Below the pieces are notes generated by a model that did no database searches, had not been told where the DNA came from, and saw only the letters and a list, made by a program, of their open reading frames with translations. Source: Mobula hypostoma (Eukaryota). Taken from it: 64,000 nucleotides of DNA. The position numbers were made by a program, and so were the translations under genes. Where the stretch lies: NCBI RefSeq assembly GCF_963921235.1, contig NC_086097.1, positions 21,392,001 to 21,456,000 of the forward strand, in the 5' to 3' direction. Shown piece after piece: positions 11,261-62,077 of the stretch; the first letter of the stretch is position 1, and each line of letters starts with the position of its first letter.

Positions 11261-12827
11261 AACACTTTCAGTACGCTGGATGAACTCAGCAGGTCGGGCA
11301 GTATCAGTTAGAAACGATGAGTCGACGTTTTGGGCCGGAACCCTTCGTCAGGACTGAAGAATGAAAGATGGGGAAGAAGTTGAAGAACGCTTGTAGTGTC
11401 AGTTGAAAGACCAGTAATTTGAAAGACAAAGGGGTGGGGGAGTGGAAGCATTGATGTCATAGCCCTGAAAACAATGGGTGGTAGAAGAAGGAGGCGGAAC
11501 CATGAGGGAGCTGGGGGAGGGGGCAGAGTGAAATAGGGATAGAGGAAGGGAGGGGGAGGGAATTACCGGAAGTTGGAGAATTCTATGTTCATACCAAGGG
11601 GTTGGAGACTACCTAGACGGTATGTGAGGTGTTGCTCCTCCAACCTGAGTTTAGCCTCATTGTGGCAGTATAGGAGGCCATGTATGGACATATCTGAATG
11701 GGAGTGGGAAGCAGAGTTGAAGTGGGTGGCTACCAGGAGATCCTGTCTGTTTTGGCGGATGGAGCTGAGGTGCTTGACGAAGCGGTCCCCCAATCTGCGT
11801 TGGGTTTCACCGATGTAGAGGAGGCCGCACCGGGAGCACCGGATGCAATAGATGACCCCAACAGACTCACAAGTGAAGTGTTGCCTCACTTGGAAGTACT
11901 GTTTGGGGCCCTGAATGGTGGCAAGAGAGGAGGTGTAGGGACAGGTGTAGCACTTACGCTTACAGGGATAAGTGCCGGGTGGGAGATCCGTGGGGAGGGA
12001 CGTGTGGACCAGCGAGTCGCGGAGGGACCGATCCCTGCGGAAGGCGGAGAGGGGTGGAGAGGGAAAGATGTGCTTAGTGGTGGGGTCCTGTTGAAGGTGG
12101 TGGAAGTTGCCGAGGATAATGTGTTGGATCCGGAGGCTGGTGGGGTGGTAGGTGAAATGTGTTGGATCACTTCACTTTTGAGTCTGTTGGGGTCATCTAT
12201 TGCATCCGGTGCTCCCGGTGTGGCCTCCTCTACATCGGAGAAACCGGATGCAGATTAGGGGACCGCTTCGTCGAGCACCTCAGCTCCGTCCGCCAAAACA
12301 GACAGGATCTCCCAGTAGCCACCCACTTCAACTCTGCTTCCCACTCCCATTCAGATATGTCCATACATGGCCTCCTTTACTGCCACGATGAGGCTAAACT
12401 CAGGTTGGAGGAGCAACACCTCATATACCGTCTAGGTAGTCTCCAGCCCCTTGGTATGAACATAGAATTCTCCAACTTCCAGTAATTCCCTCCCCCTCCC
12501 TTCCCCTATCCCTATGTCACTCGACCCCCTCCCCCAGCTCCCTCATGGTTCCGCCTCCTTCTTCTACTGCCCATTGTTTTCAGGGCTATGATGTCAATGC
12601 TTCCCCTCCCTCACCCCTTTGTCTTTCAAATTACTGGTCTATCAACTGAAGCTACAAGCATTCTTCAAATCCTTCCCCATCTTTCATTCTTCAGTCCTGA
12701 CGAAGGGTTCCGGCCCGAAACGTTGACTCATCGTTTCTGACTGATGCTGCCCGACCTGCTGAGTTCATCCAGCGTACTGAAAGTGTTGCTTTGATCTTTT
12801 ACAGCATCTGCAGATTATTTTGTGTTT
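11261..12827. mobile_element. Fold-back Penelope insertion: two inverted GIY-YIG plus pLTR arms
   Basis: GIY-YIG ORFs 11563-11889 (-) and 12159-12485 (+) are near-identical; 14-bp TSD ACATATAACACTGT (11247-11260, 12828-12841). Confidence 0.95.
12693..12728 (+). ncRNA. Minimal type I hammerhead ribozyme motif in PLE pLTR
   Basis: AGTC-CTGACGA-AGGGTTCCGGCCC-GAAA-CGTT-GACT: helix I, CUGANGA core, helix II, GAAA, NUH triplet. Confidence 0.8.
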
Positions 12828-13397: not shown

Positions 13398-15450
13398 TAG
13401 AAACATTGAAACATAGAAAACCTACAGCACAATACAGGCCCTTTGGCCCACAAAGCTGTGCCAAACTGTTCTTACTTTAGAAATTACCTAGGATTACCCA
13501 TAGCCCTCTATTTTTCTGAGTTCCATGTACCTGTCCAGGAGTCTCTTAAGAGACCCTATCATATCTGTCTCAACCACCGTCACCGGCAGCCCATTCCATG
13601 CACTCACCACTCTCTGCGTAAAAAACTTAACCCTGACATCGTGTTTACCCTGACATCCCTTCTGTACCTACTTCGAAGCACCTTAAAACTGTGCCCTCTC
13701 GTGCTAGCCATTCCAGCCCTGGGAAAAAGCCTCTGACTATCCACACAATCAATGCCTCTCATCATCTTATACACCTCTATCCGGTCACCTCTTATCCTCC
13801 GTCGCTTCAAGGAAAAAAGGCCGAGTTAACTCAACCTCATAAGGCATGCTCCCCAATCCAGGCAACATTCTTGTAAGTCTCCTCTGCACCCTTTCTATGG
13901 TTTCCACATCCTTCCAATAGTAAGGCGACCAGAACTGATCACAGTACTCCAAATGGGGTCTGACCAGGGTCCTATATACATGCAACATTACCTCTCAGCT
14001 CCTAAACTCAGTCTCATGATTAATGAAAACCAATGCACCATATGCTGTCTTAACCACAGAGTCAACCTGCGCAGCAGCTTTGAGTTTCCTGTGGACTCGG
14101 ACTCCAAGATCCCTCTGTTCCTCCACACTACCAAGAGTCTTACCACTAATACTATATTCTGCCATCATATTTGACCAACCAAAATGATCCACCTCACACT
14201 TATCTGGGTTGAACTCCATCTGCCACTTCTCAGCCCAGTTTTGCATCCTATCGATGTCCAGCTGGAACCTCTGACAGCCCTCCACACTATCCACAACACT
14301 CCCAACCTTTGTGACATCAGCAAATTTACTAACCCCTCCCTCCATTTCTTCATCCAGGTCATTTATAAAAATCATGAAAAGCAGAGGTCCCAGAACAGAT
14401 CCCTGATGCACACCACTGGTGACCAACCTCCATGCAGAATATGACCCATCTACAACCATTCTTTGCCTTTTGTGGGCAAGCCAGTTCCGGATCCACAAAG
14501 CAATGTCCCCTTGGATCCCATGCCTCCTTACTTTCTCAATAAGCCTTGCAGTGGGGTAGCTTGTCAAATGCCTTGCTGAAATCCATATACACTACATCTA
14601 CAGCTCTTCCTTCATCAATGTGTTTTGTCACATCCTCAAAAAATTCAATCAGGATCATAAGGCACGACCTGCCTTTGACAAAGCCATGCTGACTATTCCT
14701 AATCATATTATGCCTCTCCAAATGTTCATAAATCCTGCCTCTCAGGATCTTCTCCATCAACTTACCAACCACTGAAGTAAGACTCACTGGTCTATAATTT
14801 CCTGGGCTATCTCTAATCCCTTACTTGAATAATGGAACAGCATCTGCAACCCTCCAATCCTCCGGAACCTCTCTGGTACCCATTGATGATGCAAAGATCA
14901 ATGCCAGTGGCTCAGCAATCTCCTCCCTCGCTTCCCACACTAGCCTGGGGTACATCTCGTCCGGTCCCGGTGACTTATCCAACTTGATGCTTTCCAAAAG
15001 CTCCAGCACATCCTCTTTCTTAATATCTACATGCTCAAACTTTTCAGTCCGCTGTAAGTCATCCCTACAATCGCCAAGATCCTTTTCCGTAGTGAATACT
15101 GAAGCAAAGTATTCATTAAGTACCGCTGCTATCTCCTCTGGTTCCATACGTCTTATCATCTTGCTCTTGACATACTTGTAGAATCCCTTGGGATTTTCCT
15201 GAATCCTGTCCGTCAAGGTCTTCTCATGGCGCCTTCTGGCTCTCCTAATTTCTTTCTTAAGCTCCTTCCTGCTAGCCTTATAATCTTCTAGATCTCTATC
15301 ATTACCTAGTTTTTTGAACCTTTTGTAAGCTCTTCTTTTCTTCTTGACTGGATTTACAGCAGCCTTTGTACACCACGGTTCCTGTATCCTACCATCCTTC
15401 CCCATCTCATTGGAATGTACCTATGTAGAACTCCACGCAAATAACCCCTG
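13398..15450 (-). mobile_element. CR1 LINE ORF2 (RT), about 2 kb, frameshifted
   Basis: KSPGPD, SLTSVVGKLME, QHGFVKGRSC, YMDFSKAFD, QGSVLGPLLF, KFAD motifs across ORFs 14821-15405, 14536-14787 and 13995-14567. Confidence 0.95.
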
Positions 15451-32904: not shown

Positions 32905-33470
32905 ATTTTGGAATTGGGGGACCGCTTTGACAAGCCCCTCTGCTCCATCCACCAAAAGCTGAATATCCCAGTGACCAACCGTTTTAATTCCTATCCCTAT
33001 TCCTGAGGCCACTCACAGGGTGGAGCAGCAAATCCTCATATTCCGTCGTATAGCCTCCAACTAATGGCATGAACATCAATTTCTCCTTCCAGTAATTTTT
33101 TCCTTATTCCTTCTTTCCTCTTCTTCTATTCTGCACTTTGGCCTCTTACCTCTTCTCCTTACCTGCCTATCCACCTCCCCTAGTGCCCCTCCTTCTTCCT
33201 TTCCTCTCAGGGTCCACTCAGATTTCTCCAGCCCTTTACCTTCCCCACCCAACTATCATCTTCTAGCTTGTCCTCCTTCCCCTCTCCTCAATTTTTGTTC
33301 TGGCATTACCCCCACTCCACCCCCGCAGTCCTGTTGAAGGGTCTCGGCAGGAAACGTTGACTGTTTATTCATTTCATTTCTATAGATGCTGCCTTTCTTG
33401 CTGAGTTCCTCCAGCATTTTGTGTGTGTGTGTGTTGCTCAAGATTTCCAGCATCTGCAGGATGACTTGTG
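32905..33470 (+). mobile_element. Penelope GIY-YIG remnant plus pLTR
   Basis: LGDRFDKPLCSIHQK, LQLMA and pLTR with degenerate hammerhead at about 33327-33363. Confidence 0.82.
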
Positions 33471-34236
33471 TCCAAACGACTTTGCTGGTTATTTGGTATT
33501 GCAGTTAAAATGACTTTTCTGTTTATTGACACAATACCCTTGAAACAACCATGTCCTGTGAAAGTACATATCTTTACAACTGGACCTGACAGTTTCACAA
33601 CAGGCCTGAGGTACAGGGCTTTTGTCTAAGACTCTGCTTTGACTGAAGTACACAAAATTATTATTTATTTCACCATCTGATGTGAACAGGCCTTATCAAG
33701 TAGAAGTGGCGATGTGTCTCAGTGATAAGTGTGACGTTGTCTCAGAGTCTTTCATCATGTAATCTACATGTTTGATCCATGGCTAGAGAACCACAGACCC
33801 GGAATATATTAGTGGTCCTAAGCATGTGAAAATGTATCTTCTTCTGTCAGTGTTTGGAAGCTCACCCACTGCATAGAGAAGGGTCCTTTCTAATTAGTCT
33901 GGGTGTAGATCGTATCACTGAAGGAGGAGGAGATTTAAAGCTGGACCTGCAGCCAATAGTCCATTTTTAGCATTGCAACCTACGTTACAACACTTTAACC
34001 TGGAATTCAGGGTCCCATCTTCACCTAGTCTGGGGCTGATACCAAAGACTGAAACCCAAAGATTGAATGGAAGTCCAGAAGTTGAAGCCCAGTGGCTGGA
34101 GAATGGAGACGGGAGCTGGAGACCTGAGAATGGAGGCCTGTCTGGAGTTGGAGGACTGTTCGTGTGTGCAGGTTTGGTAGGAGGGAGGAAAGGGCTTGTT
34201 TTGCTGTTGTTGATTTGTTGATTTGTTGCTTGTTGC

Positions 34237-34888
34237 TGTTGTGCTCATTATTGAGGGATAGTGCAGGGCACACCAGGACGCCAGCTTGCAGGATAGTCAA
34301 CCGATCTATATTGACAACCCTGCTTGTACAGCACGTGAACTCCTCCCTTATGGAGGTGGCTAACTGGGTAGCACAGGAATAGCAATATTAGCTACCACTA
34401 CATTTCTCCTTCTTGGGGAAAAAATACTTAGGAATCTACTTCTTGTCCACAGAACTGCATTGAAATTATCGTCACTGAAATTGAGCGATTCAGTTCACTT
34501 AACCTATAGTATGCAACTTATACTCCTTACATAAACATAAAAAGGAATTGCCAACATTATAACTGTCTTTCTCTTTGTTTTTAATGGTCTCCCTCTCACT
34601 TTGTTTTCCTTCATTTTTCCCCCAATTCCTTTTCCCTTTAGAACAGTGTAAATTCTTTTTTGTTGGGGATCTCACTTGGTCTGTGGTGCCAATTCATCGA
34701 CGAGCAACCGCTTTTAACACCATGTTGTGTTCAGTATTGAGGGCTAGTGCAGAGCACACCAAGACACCTGCATGCAGGCTATTCAAATGAACTTTGTTGA
34801 CAACCCAGATCGTACAGTATGTGAACTCCTCCCATGTGAGAGTGACTAACTGAGAGGCATAGGAATGGTACTATTAACTACTACTACA
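34237..34888 (-). mobile_element. Miniature non-autonomous LTR retrotransposon (TRIM-like)
   Basis: Two 166-bp TG..CA LTRs (34237-34402, 34723-34888); minus-strand PBS TGGTGTTAAAAGCGG adjacent to the 5' LTR; PPT AAGAAGGAGAAA; 5-bp TSD GTTGC / GTTGT. Confidence 0.88.
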
Positions 34889-35929
34889 GTTGTGTTCTGC
34901 ATTGTTCTGCCATGCCTTGTGGGCATGGTATGTTGGTGCCAGAATGTGTGGCAGCAAATGCGGGGCTGCCCCTGCATGTCCCTAAGGCGAGTTTGTTGTC
35001 AACGCAAATGACACATTTCACTGTATGTTTCGATGTACGTGTGATAATTAACTCTGAATCTGAACACTTGCTACGGCTCAAATATGTGTGATATACTGTG
35101 CAGTGCAGTGGTTGCTACTGGGCCAGTAATTGAGAAAGCCGCACTGACAATCTTGAGTGATAGGAATGCTCAATACCTCAATGCTGAGGTGGAAGGAAGG
35201 GTTTAGAATGATATGGGACAATCACAAGCAAATAGCATCATTGTCATACAGCATGGAAACAGGCCGGTTGGCCCAACTTCTCATCTTGATAAAGATAAAA
35301 TTAAAGATGTGCTTCACTTGTCAGGTGTACATTGAAACATACACTGAAATGCACCACTTGCGTTGTTAGATTCCAAGGTTCTTTTGGAGATCAGGAATTA
35401 GGCACAAAAATTGATGCTTCAAGATCGTTTTGTTAAGCAATAATAGAACAGAGAAATTTGAAAGCTGGACAGTGACAAAGGTCTAGAAATTGAATGGGGA
35501 GAGAAGGCATTGAATGGTGGAACCTTGTGGTCAGCTCTTGAAACCACAGAAACAAGAAACGTTCCATTTAATTTCGCAGATAAGAGTCAACCAATCTGAC
35601 AGCCCCAATTCAAATAATGCAATACCAAGAGAACTATCCAGAACTTGCAAGGAACTGTAACTACTAGGCAACACACCGAACAAGTGCCTGTACATATTGT
35701 GGCCACTGGGAAACAGCTACGTGTATATAAGTAGTAATAAAAATACAAGCATGTAATTAATTGTTAGACTACAAAGAAAATGACAATTAAACAGTCCAAT
35801 CCAACAATTCACCCCTTTGATTCTAAATCACACATTTAGAATCATTACATTGAAATTGCAGAGGCAGAAAAAACTCGTGTAATCAATGTTAAGTATAAAA
35901 TAATCAAAAATTACTTCTGTTAGGAAATA

Positions 35930-36900
35930 TCAAAGGTGGTATTGATACACCATTGGGAGAATCTGTCAATCATCTTTTGCACTCCAGTGTATCCTAAGGA
36001 GTGTATTTGCCCTACCAGATAAAGAAGTAGTGTATTTGGAGTTGCTAGTCTATGACTAATGCCATATCTCCATAATCCATCACTGCTTATCTTCCCCCCA
36101 TTCTCGATCCAGAACCATTTTTCCAGTTATGCCACTGAGCTTTCATTGCTCAGTTATCTTTTATGTTTGTTTTTGATACAGAGTTCATTTTTGTCTCTAT
36201 AATTCCAGTTGTTCGGTTCGTTGCATATGTTCTCTGCGTTTCTCTTACTTTTATTTCTTTTAGTTCTTTTACCCCTTCCCGTGTTGCCCTTTTAGCAATT
36301 TTATCCATGAATACATTTCCACGGCTTTCCATTGTCATTTTGGAGTGGCTCATACATTTTAATACAGCAACTTTTGATGGCAGTTGTATGGCATTCATGA
36401 GTTCTTTTACCAGCCGGCCAGTGTTGATTGTGTTTCCTACAGCTGTAAGAAATCTCCTTTATCTCCATAGGTTTCCAAAATCATGAACAACTGCAAAAGC
36501 ATATTGAGAATCAGTGTCAGATATTAGATGATCTTCCTTCTGCCAACTTACAGGCTTCAGTCAGAGCATTTTGTTCAGCCTGTTGCACAGAGGTGCCAAG
36601 ATCCATGCTCCATGATGCCAGCTCTTCAGCTTCAGAAACAACAGCTCATCCAGCCATTCAGATTCCTCTCTCAATCATTGCAGGAGCCATCAGTGTACAG
36701 AATCAAACCTGAGTTCAGTATAGGCATTTCGTTTTAATAGTTTGTTTTTTTTCATGACATATTGCGGTTTTTGCACAGTCATAGTCATCATAGTGTTCCA
36801 TGTCTGGTGGTAACGGTGTAGAAGGATTCACTAGACTCGCTTGTAGTTGAATAATGGTGTCTCACAAACTTTTGGGACTTTTTGACAGGCTACATTGTGA
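35930..36900 (-). pseudogene. pol: Retroviral pol fragment (tether, RNase H, start of integrase), gamma/epsilon-like
   Basis: Broken frames read VNPSTPLPP, LYTDGSC, AQQAEQNALTEACKLAEG, TDSQYAFAVVHDFG, AIQLPSKVAVLKCMSH, RGNVFMDKIAK, QIHSLG. Confidence 0.88.
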
Positions 36901-57869: not shown

Positions 57870-58310
57870 ATGTTGAGGATTTGAGTTACACAGAAAGGTT
57901 GAGTAGGTTCGGACTTTATTCCCTAAAGTGTAGGAGGATGAGGGGAGATTTGATGGAGGTATACAAAATTATAAGTGAGGTATAGATAGGGTTAATGCAA
58001 ATAGGCTTTTTCCACTGAGGTCTGGTGAGACTAGAACTGGATGTCATAGGTTAGGGGAGAAAGATGAAATACTTATAGGGAACCTGAAGGGGAACTACTT
58101 CACTGCAAGTGTGGAATGAGCTGCCTGCGGAAGTGGTGGATGAAGGTTCGATTGCAACATTTAGGAGAGATTTGGTAAAGTATATGGATGAGAGGGTTAT
58201 GGAGGGCTATGGTCCAGGTATGGGTCAATGGGACTAGGCAAAATAGTAGTTTGGCATGGACTAGATGGGCTGAAGGGTCTGTTTCTGTGCTGTAGTGCTC
58301 TATGACTCAT
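57870..58310 (+). mobile_element. CR1 3' end
   Basis: GLYSLKCRRMRGDLMEVYKII; CR1-type tail. Confidence 0.85.
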
Positions 58311-59085
58311 TTACTCTTCTGACTGGCTGTGCCAGTGTATCCCTGGATATTTCAGCTTTCAATACAGATACAAGACTTTCTTTTTAAGTCTTTGTTTTTT
58401 ATCCTCTGAGACAGAAGGTAGTACATTGAAATGTTGTTTTCCCTGTTCCCCAGGGTTTCATATTGCACTTGATGATGAATCCACTTTAGGTCATATTGAC
58501 AGAGGAAATCAGAGGCGTCGGTTAAAGTTTGAACTTGACAGATGTTCTTTAGACATTTGAAGCACCATATGTGAAACTAATGGGCTGAACTTCAGGGATG
58601 AATGAACTGCCGAGGATGAGCAGCTCAGTGTGGTTCGAAGAGAGCTGACCCGTTCCATCAAAGTCAACGTCAGGAGAGACCCTTTGAACTCCACTGTCCC
58701 CAGTGCCCCTGTCTCTGTGGCTGGGAATCTTCCAGCTCTTCAGTCGCAACAGAGAAATGGTGAAATTAAGCAGCAGTTTGACATTCATCATGTAGAAAAA
58801 ATGGGAAATCTAGAAAAGTGTAGGCTGTGTAGCTCCTCGAGTCTATTCTACCTTTTGTTTCTTGGTTTATATGCCCCATTGGTCTCATGGTGAATCTGTG
58901 GAATTCATTGCCACAGACTGCTGTGGAGGTGTACTTAAAATGGAGGTTGATAGGTTCTTGATTAGTAAGAGTGTCAAAAAAAGGTTATGAGGAGAAGGTA
59001 AGAGAAGTGGGTTCAGAGAGATAATAAATCAGCCATGATGAAATGGTGGAGCAGACTCGATGGGCTGAATGGCCTAATTCTGCTC

Positions 59086-59219
59086 ACACGAGGAAATCTG
59101 TAGATGCTGGAAATTCAAGCAACACACACAAAATGCTGGTGGAACGCAGCAGGCCAGACGGCATCCATAGGAAGAAGCAGAGTCGACGTTTCAGGCCGAG
59201 ACCCTTCGTCAGGACAGTC
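59086..59219 (-). mobile_element. 134-bp PLE pLTR mini-insertion carrying an intact hammerhead motif (59181-59215)
   Basis: Minus strand GTC-CTGACGA-AGGGTCTCGGCCT-GAAA-CGTC-GAC; flanking duplication TCTGCTC (59079-59085, 59220-59226). Confidence 0.85.
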
Positions 59220-59422
59220 TCTGCTCCTCTGTCTTATGACCTATGCTCTTATACAAATTCTCAGTTTATGCCTCATTTGGCTTCTGAGTTAGATAGTTGT
59301 GGGTTCTCAAGGGTCTTGAATACAGAAAACAATGATAAAAACAGAATATGCAAGAAATATTCAGTGGGTCAGGCAGCATCCCTGGAGAGAGGGAAATGGT
59401 TTATGTTTTAGGTTGATCATCT

Positions 59423-62077
59423 CGGTAGCATAGTAGTGAGTACAACGTTTTACAGTACAGGTGATCTGCATTCAATTCCTGTTGCTGTCTGTACGAAGTT
59501 TGTACCTTCTCCCCCATGACCATGTGGGTTTTGTCCATGCGCAGCGGTTTCCTCCCACAGTCCAAAGATGTGCCGGCTGGGAGGTTAGATCGTGGTAAAT
59601 TGTCCCATGATTAGGCTAGGATTAAATCGGGAGATTGCCGGGTGGCATGTAGGATTAAATCGGGAGATTGCTGGATGGCATGTAGGATTAGATGGGGAGA
59701 TTGCTGGGTGGCATGTAGGATTAGATGGGGAGATTGCTGGATGGCATGTAGGATTAGATGGGGAGATTGCCGGGTGGCATGTAGGATTAAATCGGGAGAT
59801 TGCTGGATGGCATGTAGGATTAGATGGGGAGATTGCTGGGTGGCATGTAGGATTAGATGGGGAGATTGCTGGATGGCATGTAGGATTAGATGGGGAGATT
59901 GCCAGGTGGCATGTAGGATTAAATCGGGAGATTGCTGGGTGGCATATAGGATTAGATGGGGAGATTGCGGGGTGGCATGTAGGATTAAATCGGGAGATTG
60001 CTGGGTGGCATGTAGGATTAGATGAGGAGATTGCCGGGTGGCATGTAGGATTAGATGGGGAGATTGCCGGGTGGCATGTAGGATTAAATCGGGGGATTGC
60101 TGGGTGGCATGTAGGATTAGATGGGGAGATTGCTGGGTGGCATGTAGGATTAGATGGGGAGATTGCTGGATGGCATGTAGGATTAGATGGGGAGATTGCC
60201 GGGTGGCATGTAGGATTAGATGGGGAGATTGCTGGGTGGCATGTAGGATTAGATGGGGAGATTGCTGGGTGGCAAGTAGGATTAGATGGGGAGATTGCTG
60301 GGTGGCATGTAGGATTAAATCGGGAGATTGCTGGGTGGCATGTAGGATTAGATGGGGAGATTGCTGGGTGGCATGTAGGATTAGATGGGGAGATTGCCGG
60401 GTGGCATGTAGGATTAGATGGGGAGATTGCCGGGTGGCATGTAGGATTAGATGGGGAGATTGCTGGGTGGCATGTAGGATTAGATGGGGAGATTGCTGGG
60501 TGGCATGTAGGATTAGATGGGGAGATTGCTGGGTGGCGTGTAGGATTAGATGGGGAGATTGCTGGATGGCATGTAGGATTAGATGGGGAGATTGCCGGGT
60601 GGCATGTAGGATTAAATCGGGAGATTGCTGGGTGGCATGTAGGATTAGATGGGGAGATTGCTGGGTGGCATGTAGGATTAAATCGGGGGATTGCTGGGTG
60701 GCATGTAGGATTAGATGGGGAGATTGCTGGGTGGCATGTAGGATTAGATGGGGAGATTGCTGGGTGGCATGTAGGATTAAATCGGGAGATTGCTGGGTGG
60801 CATGTAGGATTAGATGGGGAGATTGCTGGGTGGCATGTAGGATTAGATGGGGAGATTGCTGGGTGGCATGTAGGATTAAATCGGGAGATTGCTGGGTGGC
60901 ATGTAGGATTAGATGAGGAGATTGCTGGGTGGCATGTAGGATTAAATCGGGGGATTGTTGGGTGGCATGTAGGATTAGATGGGGGGATTGCTGGGTGGCA
61001 TGTAGGATTAGATGGGGAGATTGCCAGGTGGCATGTAGGATTAGATGAGGAGATTGCCGGGTGGCATGTAGGATTAGATGAGGAGATTGCCGGGTGGCAT
61101 GTAGGATTAGATGAGGAGATTGCCGGGTGGCATGCAGGATTAGATGGGGAGATTGCTGGGTGGCATGTAGGATTAGATGGGGAGATTGCTGGGTGGCATG
61201 TAGGATTAGATGGGGAGATTGCTGGGTGGCATGTAGGATTAGATGGGGAGATTGCTGGATGGCATGTAGGATTAGATGGGGAGATTGCCGGGTGGCATGT
61301 AGGATTAAATCGGGAGATTGCTGGGTGGCATGTAGGATTAGATGGGGAGATTGCTGGGTGGCATGTAGGATTAAATCGGGGGATTGCTGGGTGGCATGTA
61401 GGATTAGATGGGGAGATTGCTGGGTGGCATGTAGGATTAGATGGGGAGATTGCGGTGTGGCATGTAGGATTAAATCGGGAGATTGCTGGGTGGCATGTAG
61501 GATTAGATGAGGAGATTGCTGGGTGGCATGTAGGATTAAATCGGGGGATTGTTGGGTGGCATGTAGGATTAGATGGGGGGATTGCTGGGTGGCATGTAGG
61601 ATTAGATGAGGAGATTGCCGGGTGGCATGTAGGATTAGATGAGGAGATTGCCGGGTGGCATGTAGGATTAGATGAGGAGATTGCTGGGTGGCATGTAGGA
61701 TTAGATGAGGAGATTGCCGGGTGGCATGTAGGATTAAATCGGGGGATTGCTGGGTGGCATGTAGGATTAGATGGGGGATTGCTGGGTGGCATGTAGGATT
61801 AGATGGGGAGATTGCTGGGTGGCATGTAGGATTAGATGGGGAGATTGCTGGGTGGCATGTAGGATTAGATGGGGAGATTGCTGGGTGGCATGTAGGCTTA
61901 AATCGGGGGATTGCTGGGTGGCATGTAGGATTAGATGGGGAGATTGCTGGGTGGCATGTAGGATTAGATGGGGAGATTGCTGGGTGGCATGTAGGATTAA
62001 ATCGGGGGATTGCTGGGTGGCATGGATTGAAGGGTCAGAATGACCTATTCTGCATTGTATCTCAATAAATAAAAAAA
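59423..62077 (+). mobile_element. V-SINE whose tail is split by a minisatellite
   Basis: Head and V-domain at 59423-59616 (GGTTTCCTCCCACAGTCCAAAGATGTGC); 3' end at 62025-62077 ending AATAAATAAAAAAA. Confidence 0.8.
59617..62024 (+). repeat. 33-bp minisatellite, 73 units
   Basis: Consensus TAGGATTAGATGGGGAGATTGCTGGGTGGCATG; 2408 bp = 73 x 33 minus one 1-bp deletion near 61775. Confidence 0.98.

What the first reader, a model, noticed from the sequence alone, without database searches (positions are those of the whole stretch)
34237..34888. 652-bp TRIM-like miniature LTR retrotransposon in a vertebrate genome
Seen: two direct repeats of exactly 166 bp, both TG..CA, around a 320-bp interior with no recognisable coding capacity. 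On the minus strand TGGTGTTAAAAGCGG abuts the 5' LTR and AAGAAGGAGAAA abuts the 3' LTR. Flanks are GTTGC / GTTGT. Known: TGGTGTCAGAAGTGG is the tRNA-Leu PBS (12/15 match here); short LTRs with a 5-bp TSD and Leu PBS fit Mag-like Ty3/Gypsy elements; TRIMs are described mainly in plants and a few invertebrates. Inference: all cis signals for trans-mobilisation are kept, so this may represent an undescribed chondrichthyan TRIM family.
Basis: partly seen in the sequence, partly recalled or inferred. Interest (0 to 1): 0.8.

Follow-up and report, generated by a model that had tools for sequence, protein, structure and literature searches.

The report
Shrunken relic of a Gypsy retrotransposon
This is an old, decayed copy of an ordinary 5-kb Gypsy retrotransposon that lost its whole coding middle next to a short repeated word; only two other copies with the same cut were found among an estimated several hundred, so it is likely a rare accident rather than a new miniature element family.

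Summary
The structure is real: two 166-bp LTRs (79% identical, so old), a tRNA-Leu primer site, a polypurine tract and a 4/5 target duplication. It is not a TRIM family of any size. The genome holds a 4.9-5.0-kb Ty3/Gypsy parent (RT, RNase H, integrase; Steamer/Mag C-clade-like anatomy) with roughly 500 copies by estimate. The 652-bp element is that parent minus about 4.3 kb. An 11-nt direct repeat sits at both ends of the lost stretch. Only two other loci share the junction. In an unbiased motif sample 1 of 73 family 5' ends was joined, and runs of four organisms show no amplification. The family is full of one-off internal deletions (59 catalogued). Whether the three short copies arose separately or from one short source moved in trans is unresolved: trees have no power here. 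Independent origins are slightly favoured, because the window junction differs by 6 nt and one copy carries different LTR variants. Vertebrate TRIMs are already published (Helenus in zebrafish, coelacanth, sturgeon). Low interest; the small value is a TRIM-shaped element with a traceable birth junction.

The parts
34723..34888 (-). 5' LTR, 166 bp, TG..CA
   Evidence: matches both LTRs of 4.9-5.0-kb copies at about 77-84%
34708..34722 (-). Primer-binding site, 12 of 15 complementary to host tRNA-Leu(CAG) plus CCA
34647..34722 (-). First 76 bp of the parent's 5' leader (includes the primer site); parent positions about 167-242
34640..34647 (-). Deletion junction: about 4.3 kb of the parent (all of gag-pol) is missing here; the remnant of an 11-nt direct repeat that flanks the lost stretch in long copies lies at 34640-34646
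34403..34646 (-). Last 244 bp of the parent's 3' untranslated region
34403..34414 (-). Polypurine tract abutting the 3' LTR
34237..34402 (-). 3' LTR, 166 bp, TG..CA
34232..34236 (.). Target-site duplication, left copy (4 of 5 match to the right copy)
34889..34893 (.). Target-site duplication, right copy

Best explanation
The 652-bp element is an old copy of a 5-kb Ty3/Gypsy retrotransposon that lost its whole gag-pol region at an 11-base direct repeat, likely in a one-off slip that happened separately a few times in this family and was likely never amplified. Shown: the parent, the breakpoints, the repeat, the rarity (3 loci found), and an age like the rest of the family. Inferred: during the family's single burst, reverse transcriptase jumped from the downstream copy of the repeat to the upstream copy. 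That keeps LTRs, primer site and purine tract, so the short DNA could finish and integrate once with a normal 5-bp duplication. Repair-driven deletion between the same repeats after insertion would give the same product and cannot be told apart here. The copy then decayed neutrally and is inert. The core (deletion derivative, not an amplified family) is about 0.9 sure; separate origins are about 0.55.
For: Parent: 27 of 38 ten-kb extensions hold a second LTR or 5' end. Four colinear copies measure 4903-4955 bp. Pfam finds RVT_1, RT_RNaseH and Integrase_H2C2 in that order in 4 of 4 copies scanned. Junction: long copies carry the same 11-mer at both breakpoints; L132 has the clean repeat-fused join and L070 a mutated form of it. 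Rarity: 1 joined of 73 family 5' ends in a motif sample not chosen on the join (95% interval 0.03-7.4%); about 480 5' ends estimated. Patterns gave no new copy, and five or more unseen copies are unlikely (rough P 0.03). In four runs of four organisms summed depth falls to single-copy level or about zero at the junction, while 29-34 contigs per run carry on into the long interior. Background: 59 distinct clean internal deletions, most of them single. Separate origins: the window join lacks 6 bases that L070 and L132 keep. None of L132's 7 variants shared by both of its LTRs is shared that way by the window copy or L070, while 3 are by long copies. The three are no closer to each other (74-78%) than to long copies (mean 78.6%).
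Against: The tree is a star, and an AU test does not reject one clade for the three (p 0.32). A control shows the method has no power: a gag-deleted set that shares one junction also shares almost no substitutions. That set (8 copies) suggests this family did move defective copies in trans. No deletion was seen at 7 other 11-nt interior repeats in 202 opportunities (P 0.06-0.36 if rates were equal). Two other deletion junctions searched genome-wide were single, but they have little true repeat at the break, so they are weak controls. A passage on reverse-transcriptase deletions between short repeats was sought and not found in PMC12789967; that mechanism is recalled knowledge.
Confidence: 0.55

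Rival explanations
1. Aborted TRIM lineage: the deletion happened once, the short element was transcribed from its LTR, packaged and copied in trans by the parent's proteins, and left a handful of insertions before the family died.
For: Three loci share the breakpoint region at unrelated sites; L070 has a perfect 5-bp duplication. All cis signals are kept. The family has a precedent, 8 copies sharing one gag deletion without a perfect repeat at the join. No deletions at 7 other 11-nt repeats in 202 opportunities. One clade is not rejected.
Against: An 11-nt repeat at both breakpoints explains recurrence without descent. The window join differs by 6 bases. L132's LTR variants are not shared with the other two. 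Copy number is about 1% of the family.
Confidence: 0.33
2. The window copy comes from a spliced RNA of the parent that was reverse-transcribed and integrated.
For: In long copies the left breakpoint is followed by GTAAG, a donor-like word, and the right breakpoint is preceded by AG with a branch-point-like CTAAT about 26 bases upstream (read by eye; the consensus motifs are recalled). The window join cuts exactly at the GT.
Against: The join is one base short of the GT-AG product. The acceptor is GAG with a purine-rich tract. L070 and L132 keep the GT bases, so they are not spliced. Patterns that would catch exact spliced joins found none (sensitivity about 0.2 each by estimate).
Confidence: 0.1
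3. Assembly artefact or chance pairing of two solo LTRs.
For: The LTRs are only 79% identical.
Against: Long copies show the same LTR divergence (median K2P 0.22 in 25 copies). The interior maps to the parent's two ends in order. A second organism's contig spans the junction.
Confidence: 0.02

Closest known systems
TRIMs (terminal-repeat retrotransposons in miniature), including vertebrate Helenus families LTR-11_DR, LTR1_LCh, LTR2_Lch (PMC10886601; sections 3 and 13 and passages read)
   Same: Under 1 kb, two LTRs, primer site and purine tract, no coding capacity, target duplication; some vertebrate Helenus families use tRNA-Leu.
   Different: Those are amplified families (LTR-11_DR has 2618 internal portions). 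Here 3 decayed loci were found. No small-RNA-derived sequence was detected around the element (Rfam and ARAGORN blank). The whole interior comes straight from the parent's two ends.
[quoted passage not shown]
   Same: Parent length 4.9-5.0 kb against 4968 bp; LTR 166 bp against 177 bp (Mag C mean 174); the same 12-base tRNA-Leu primer site; the LTR 3' end fits the Mag C motif; relatives encode polyproteins of about 1300 residues named K02A2.6-like.
   Different: The LTR start does not match the Steamer-family start motif given in PMC8905726. Clade placement was not tested with reference sequences.
Microhomology-mediated miniaturisation of a Tc1/mariner element into MITEs (PMC3814204; abstract read)
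   Same: An internal deletion between short direct repeats turns an autonomous element into a miniature one that keeps its cis ends.
   Different: That is a DNA transposon whose products amplified (at least 116 copies). Here it is an LTR element, an 11-nt repeat, and little or no amplification.

Membership tests
TRIM | Under 1 kb with two LTRs | tested here: met
   652 bp, two 166-bp LTRs
TRIM | Primer site and purine tract at the ends of the interior | tested here: met
TRIM | No coding capacity | tested here: met
   longest stop-free stretch 64 codons; interior maps to the parent's untranslated ends
TRIM | Target-site duplication | tested here: met
   4 of 5 in the window, 5 of 5 in L070
TRIM | Amplified as a multi-copy family with a shared interior | tested here: not met
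   3 loci found; 1 of 73 sampled 5' ends joined; no amplification in four organisms
TRIM | Moved in trans in its short form (copies descend from a short source) | tested here: inconclusive
   star tree, AU p 0.32, control without power
Helenus/Ajax/Cassandra-type TRIMs | tRNA- or 5S-derived sequence inside the LTR | tested here: not met
   no Rfam match to E 0.1 in 33000-36500; no ARAGORN gene in the window; a very decayed remnant could be missed
Ty3/Gypsy (parent) | RT, RNase H, then integrase between LTRs | tested here: met
   four copies
Mag lineage, C-clade / Steamer-like (parent) | About 5 kb, short LTRs, tRNA-Leu primer site | tested here: met
   against PMC8905726
Mag lineage, C-clade / Steamer-like (parent) | RT/RNase H phylogeny inside the C-clade | not testable with these tools
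   no named reference set was at hand; hits are unnamed or K02A2.6-like
Steamer family in the strict sense (parent) | LTR start motif of Steamer elements | tested here: not met
   LTR starts differ from the motif

The most novel reading that the evidence does not exclude
A vertebrate TRIM lineage caught at birth: one deletion at an 11-base repeat turned a Steamer-like Gypsy into a 650-bp element, which was then copied in trans to at least three sites before the family died, with parent, breakpoint and products all still readable in one genome.
Probability: 0.33. Interest if true: 0.3.

Novelty: new member of a known kind. Interest (0 to 1): 0.15.

Why it matters
It matters little as it stands: a decayed deletion derivative in an old family full of deletions. 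The small value is as a worked example. A sugar-beet survey looked for short repeats marking the breakpoints of non-autonomous LTR families and found no consistent signal (bioRxiv 10.64898/2026.03.01.708851, passages). Here parent, breakpoint and repeat are all visible. It also warns that TRIM-shaped structure alone does not show a TRIM family.

Tried and rejected
L100 looked like a junction copy but is a long copy with another repeat inserted at that point; the search built on it was wasted. L261 and L266 are also unjoined (L266 is the same place as L100). Of 26 hits only the 3 known loci are family members. Tree and rare-state tests were uninformative, and the control showed why. Two deletions that seemed to have 11-14-base overlaps have little true repeat at the break, so searches are weak controls. 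PDB sequence search gave one weak hit. Rfam and ARAGORN were blank on the element. No RNA holder was listed; one run guessed as RNA covers 34709-34950 at depth 3.4 and is no evidence on expression. Organism D and G runs show no contig across the junction, which does not prove absence. Paper searches (listings seen) showed no title on a shark or ray TRIM. That is not proof of absence, and Repbase, Dfam and paper supplements were not seen. The host group was not tested. No date in years is given, as no rate was at hand.

Full report
Observation. The element is as described. Two 166-bp direct repeats with TG..CA ends lie at 34237-34402 and 34723-34888. They are 131 of 166 identical (K2P 0.25), which marks an old insertion. 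The sense strand is the minus strand. The primer site matches 12 of 15 bases complementary to a host tRNA-Leu(CAG) plus CCA; ARAGORN called that gene in 1 of the 3 loci tested. The flanks match 4 of 5, and 5 bp is the family's duplication length in 15 two-LTR copies. The interior has no frame longer than 64 codons.

The parent. A search of the own genome with the 652 bp scored 40 of 1227 candidates. Apart from the self hit, no match runs more than 7 bases across element position 411. Of 38 ten-kb extensions, 27 hold a second LTR or 5' end. Four colinear copies are 4903-4955 bp long. Reading four copies with X at stops gives RVT_1, RT_RNaseH and Integrase_H2C2 in Gypsy order, several below the curated cut-off because the frames are broken. 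Relatives encode polyproteins of about 1300 residues, those with names mostly K02A2.6-like. [quoted passage not shown] The LTR 3' end fits the Mag C motif (PMC3601003, passages). The LTR start is not the Steamer motif, and clade placement was not tested by a tree.

The junction. The window copy joins parent position about 242 to about 4556 in L049 coordinates, so all of gag-pol is gone. Long copies carry the same 11-mer just after the left breakpoint and at the right one. Two other loci have this join: L070 (contig C12; with a 1-kb insert; 5 of 5 duplication) and L132 (contig C52). Their flanks are unrelated apart from short stretches of under 50 bases. L132 has the clean repeat-fused join and L070 a mutated form of it. 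The window copy lacks 6 further bases.

How many. A 15-base motif upstream of the join gave 83 matches (control 19). By eye 10 are not family, 72 continue into the long interior (2 doubtful) and 1 is joined (95% interval 0.03-7.4%). The motif was exact in 3 of 20 copies not chosen on it, giving about 480 family 5' ends, a rough figure. A pattern across the join gave 26 hits, of which only the 3 known loci are family; it was designed to fit those three. A second pattern with estimated sensitivity 0.41 gave 26 hits and no new copy. Short DNA searches gave none either; each scores only 40 candidates and missed known copies, so they are insensitive. Five or more unseen copies are unlikely by rough estimate. 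In runs of four organisms, summed depth drops to single-copy level or about zero at the junction, while 29-34 contigs per run continue into the long interior. One contig of organism B spans the junction with 5 differences in 203 bases and no gap, so the deletion is older than that split.

One origin or several. The three short copies are 74-78% alike, against a mean of 78.6% among 28 copies. The tree is a star and one clade is not rejected (AU p 0.32). A control shows the lack of power. Eight copies share a roughly 285-bp gag deletion without a perfect repeat at the join, yet the five of them tested share only 3 candidate diagnostic columns, one being the junction itself. For separate origins: the repeat itself, the 6-base difference, and L132's 7 variants common to both of its LTRs, none shared that way by the other two while 3 are by long copies. 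L132 is also the most diverged copy, so part of this may be noise. For one origin with trans-movement: the gag-deleted precedent, and no deletion at 7 other 11-nt repeats in 202 opportunities (P 0.06-0.36). The family has 59 distinct clean deletions among the loci held, most of them single. I put separate origins at 0.55, an aborted TRIM lineage at 0.33 and a spliced-RNA origin for the window copy at 0.10.

Mechanism. Shown: the loss coincides with an 11-nt direct repeat. Inferred from general knowledge of reverse transcriptases (recalled; the passages read in PMC12789967 did not cover it): a template switch between the repeats gives a short DNA that keeps all cis signals and integrates once. 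Repair after insertion gives the same product. A parallel in DNA transposons is published (PMC3814204, abstract).

Novelty. TRIM-type elements in vertebrates are published: Helenus families in zebrafish (2618 internal portions), coelacanth and sturgeon (PMC10886601, sections 3 and 13 and passages). This element has a TRIM's shape but fails the amplification test, so I do not file it as a TRIM family. Searches listed no paper on a shark or ray TRIM; Repbase and Dfam were not available, and the host group was not tested. Verdict: an ordinary deletion relic with a traceable breakpoint; interest 0.15.

Noticed in passing
L035, L063, L138, L151, L214, L230, L234, L241 (parent position about 828 to 1112 in L049): Eight copies share one roughly 285-bp deletion in gag with no perfect repeat at the join: likely a defective subfamily amplified in trans.
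   Followed up: partly
L070:1341-1354 and 2855-2868: The 14 bases before the 3' LTR equal the 14 bases of genomic flank before the 5' LTR and replace the end of the purine tract; this looks like gene conversion from one end of the element onto the other.
   Followed up: no
parent RT region, L049:6548-7147: A decayed copy is 62-64% identical to proteins from a catfish and a cyprinid; arithmetic on about 47 copies implies about 75% for the source element, against 56-60% for other relatives tested. This may hint at horizontal transfer among aquatic hosts.
   Followed up: partly
window 35000-35047 and 35318-35365: A 48-base inverted pair next to the element, with very high depth in all four runs laid; probably two tails of an abundant short repeat.
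   Followed up: no
window 11563-12171 (-) and 13998-14591 (-): GIY-YIG and RVT_1 Pfam hits; likely Penelope-like and LINE remnants.
   Followed up: no
window 58001-62000: Extreme GC skew (0.71 in 60001-62000) with overlapping open frames of 735-807 codons on both strands; probably a tandem repeat.
   Followed up: no
L132 flanks (G000:C52 near 7.52 Mb): The second short copy appears to sit inside a short interspersed repeat and its duplication is decayed (read by eye; repeat identity recalled).
   Followed up: no
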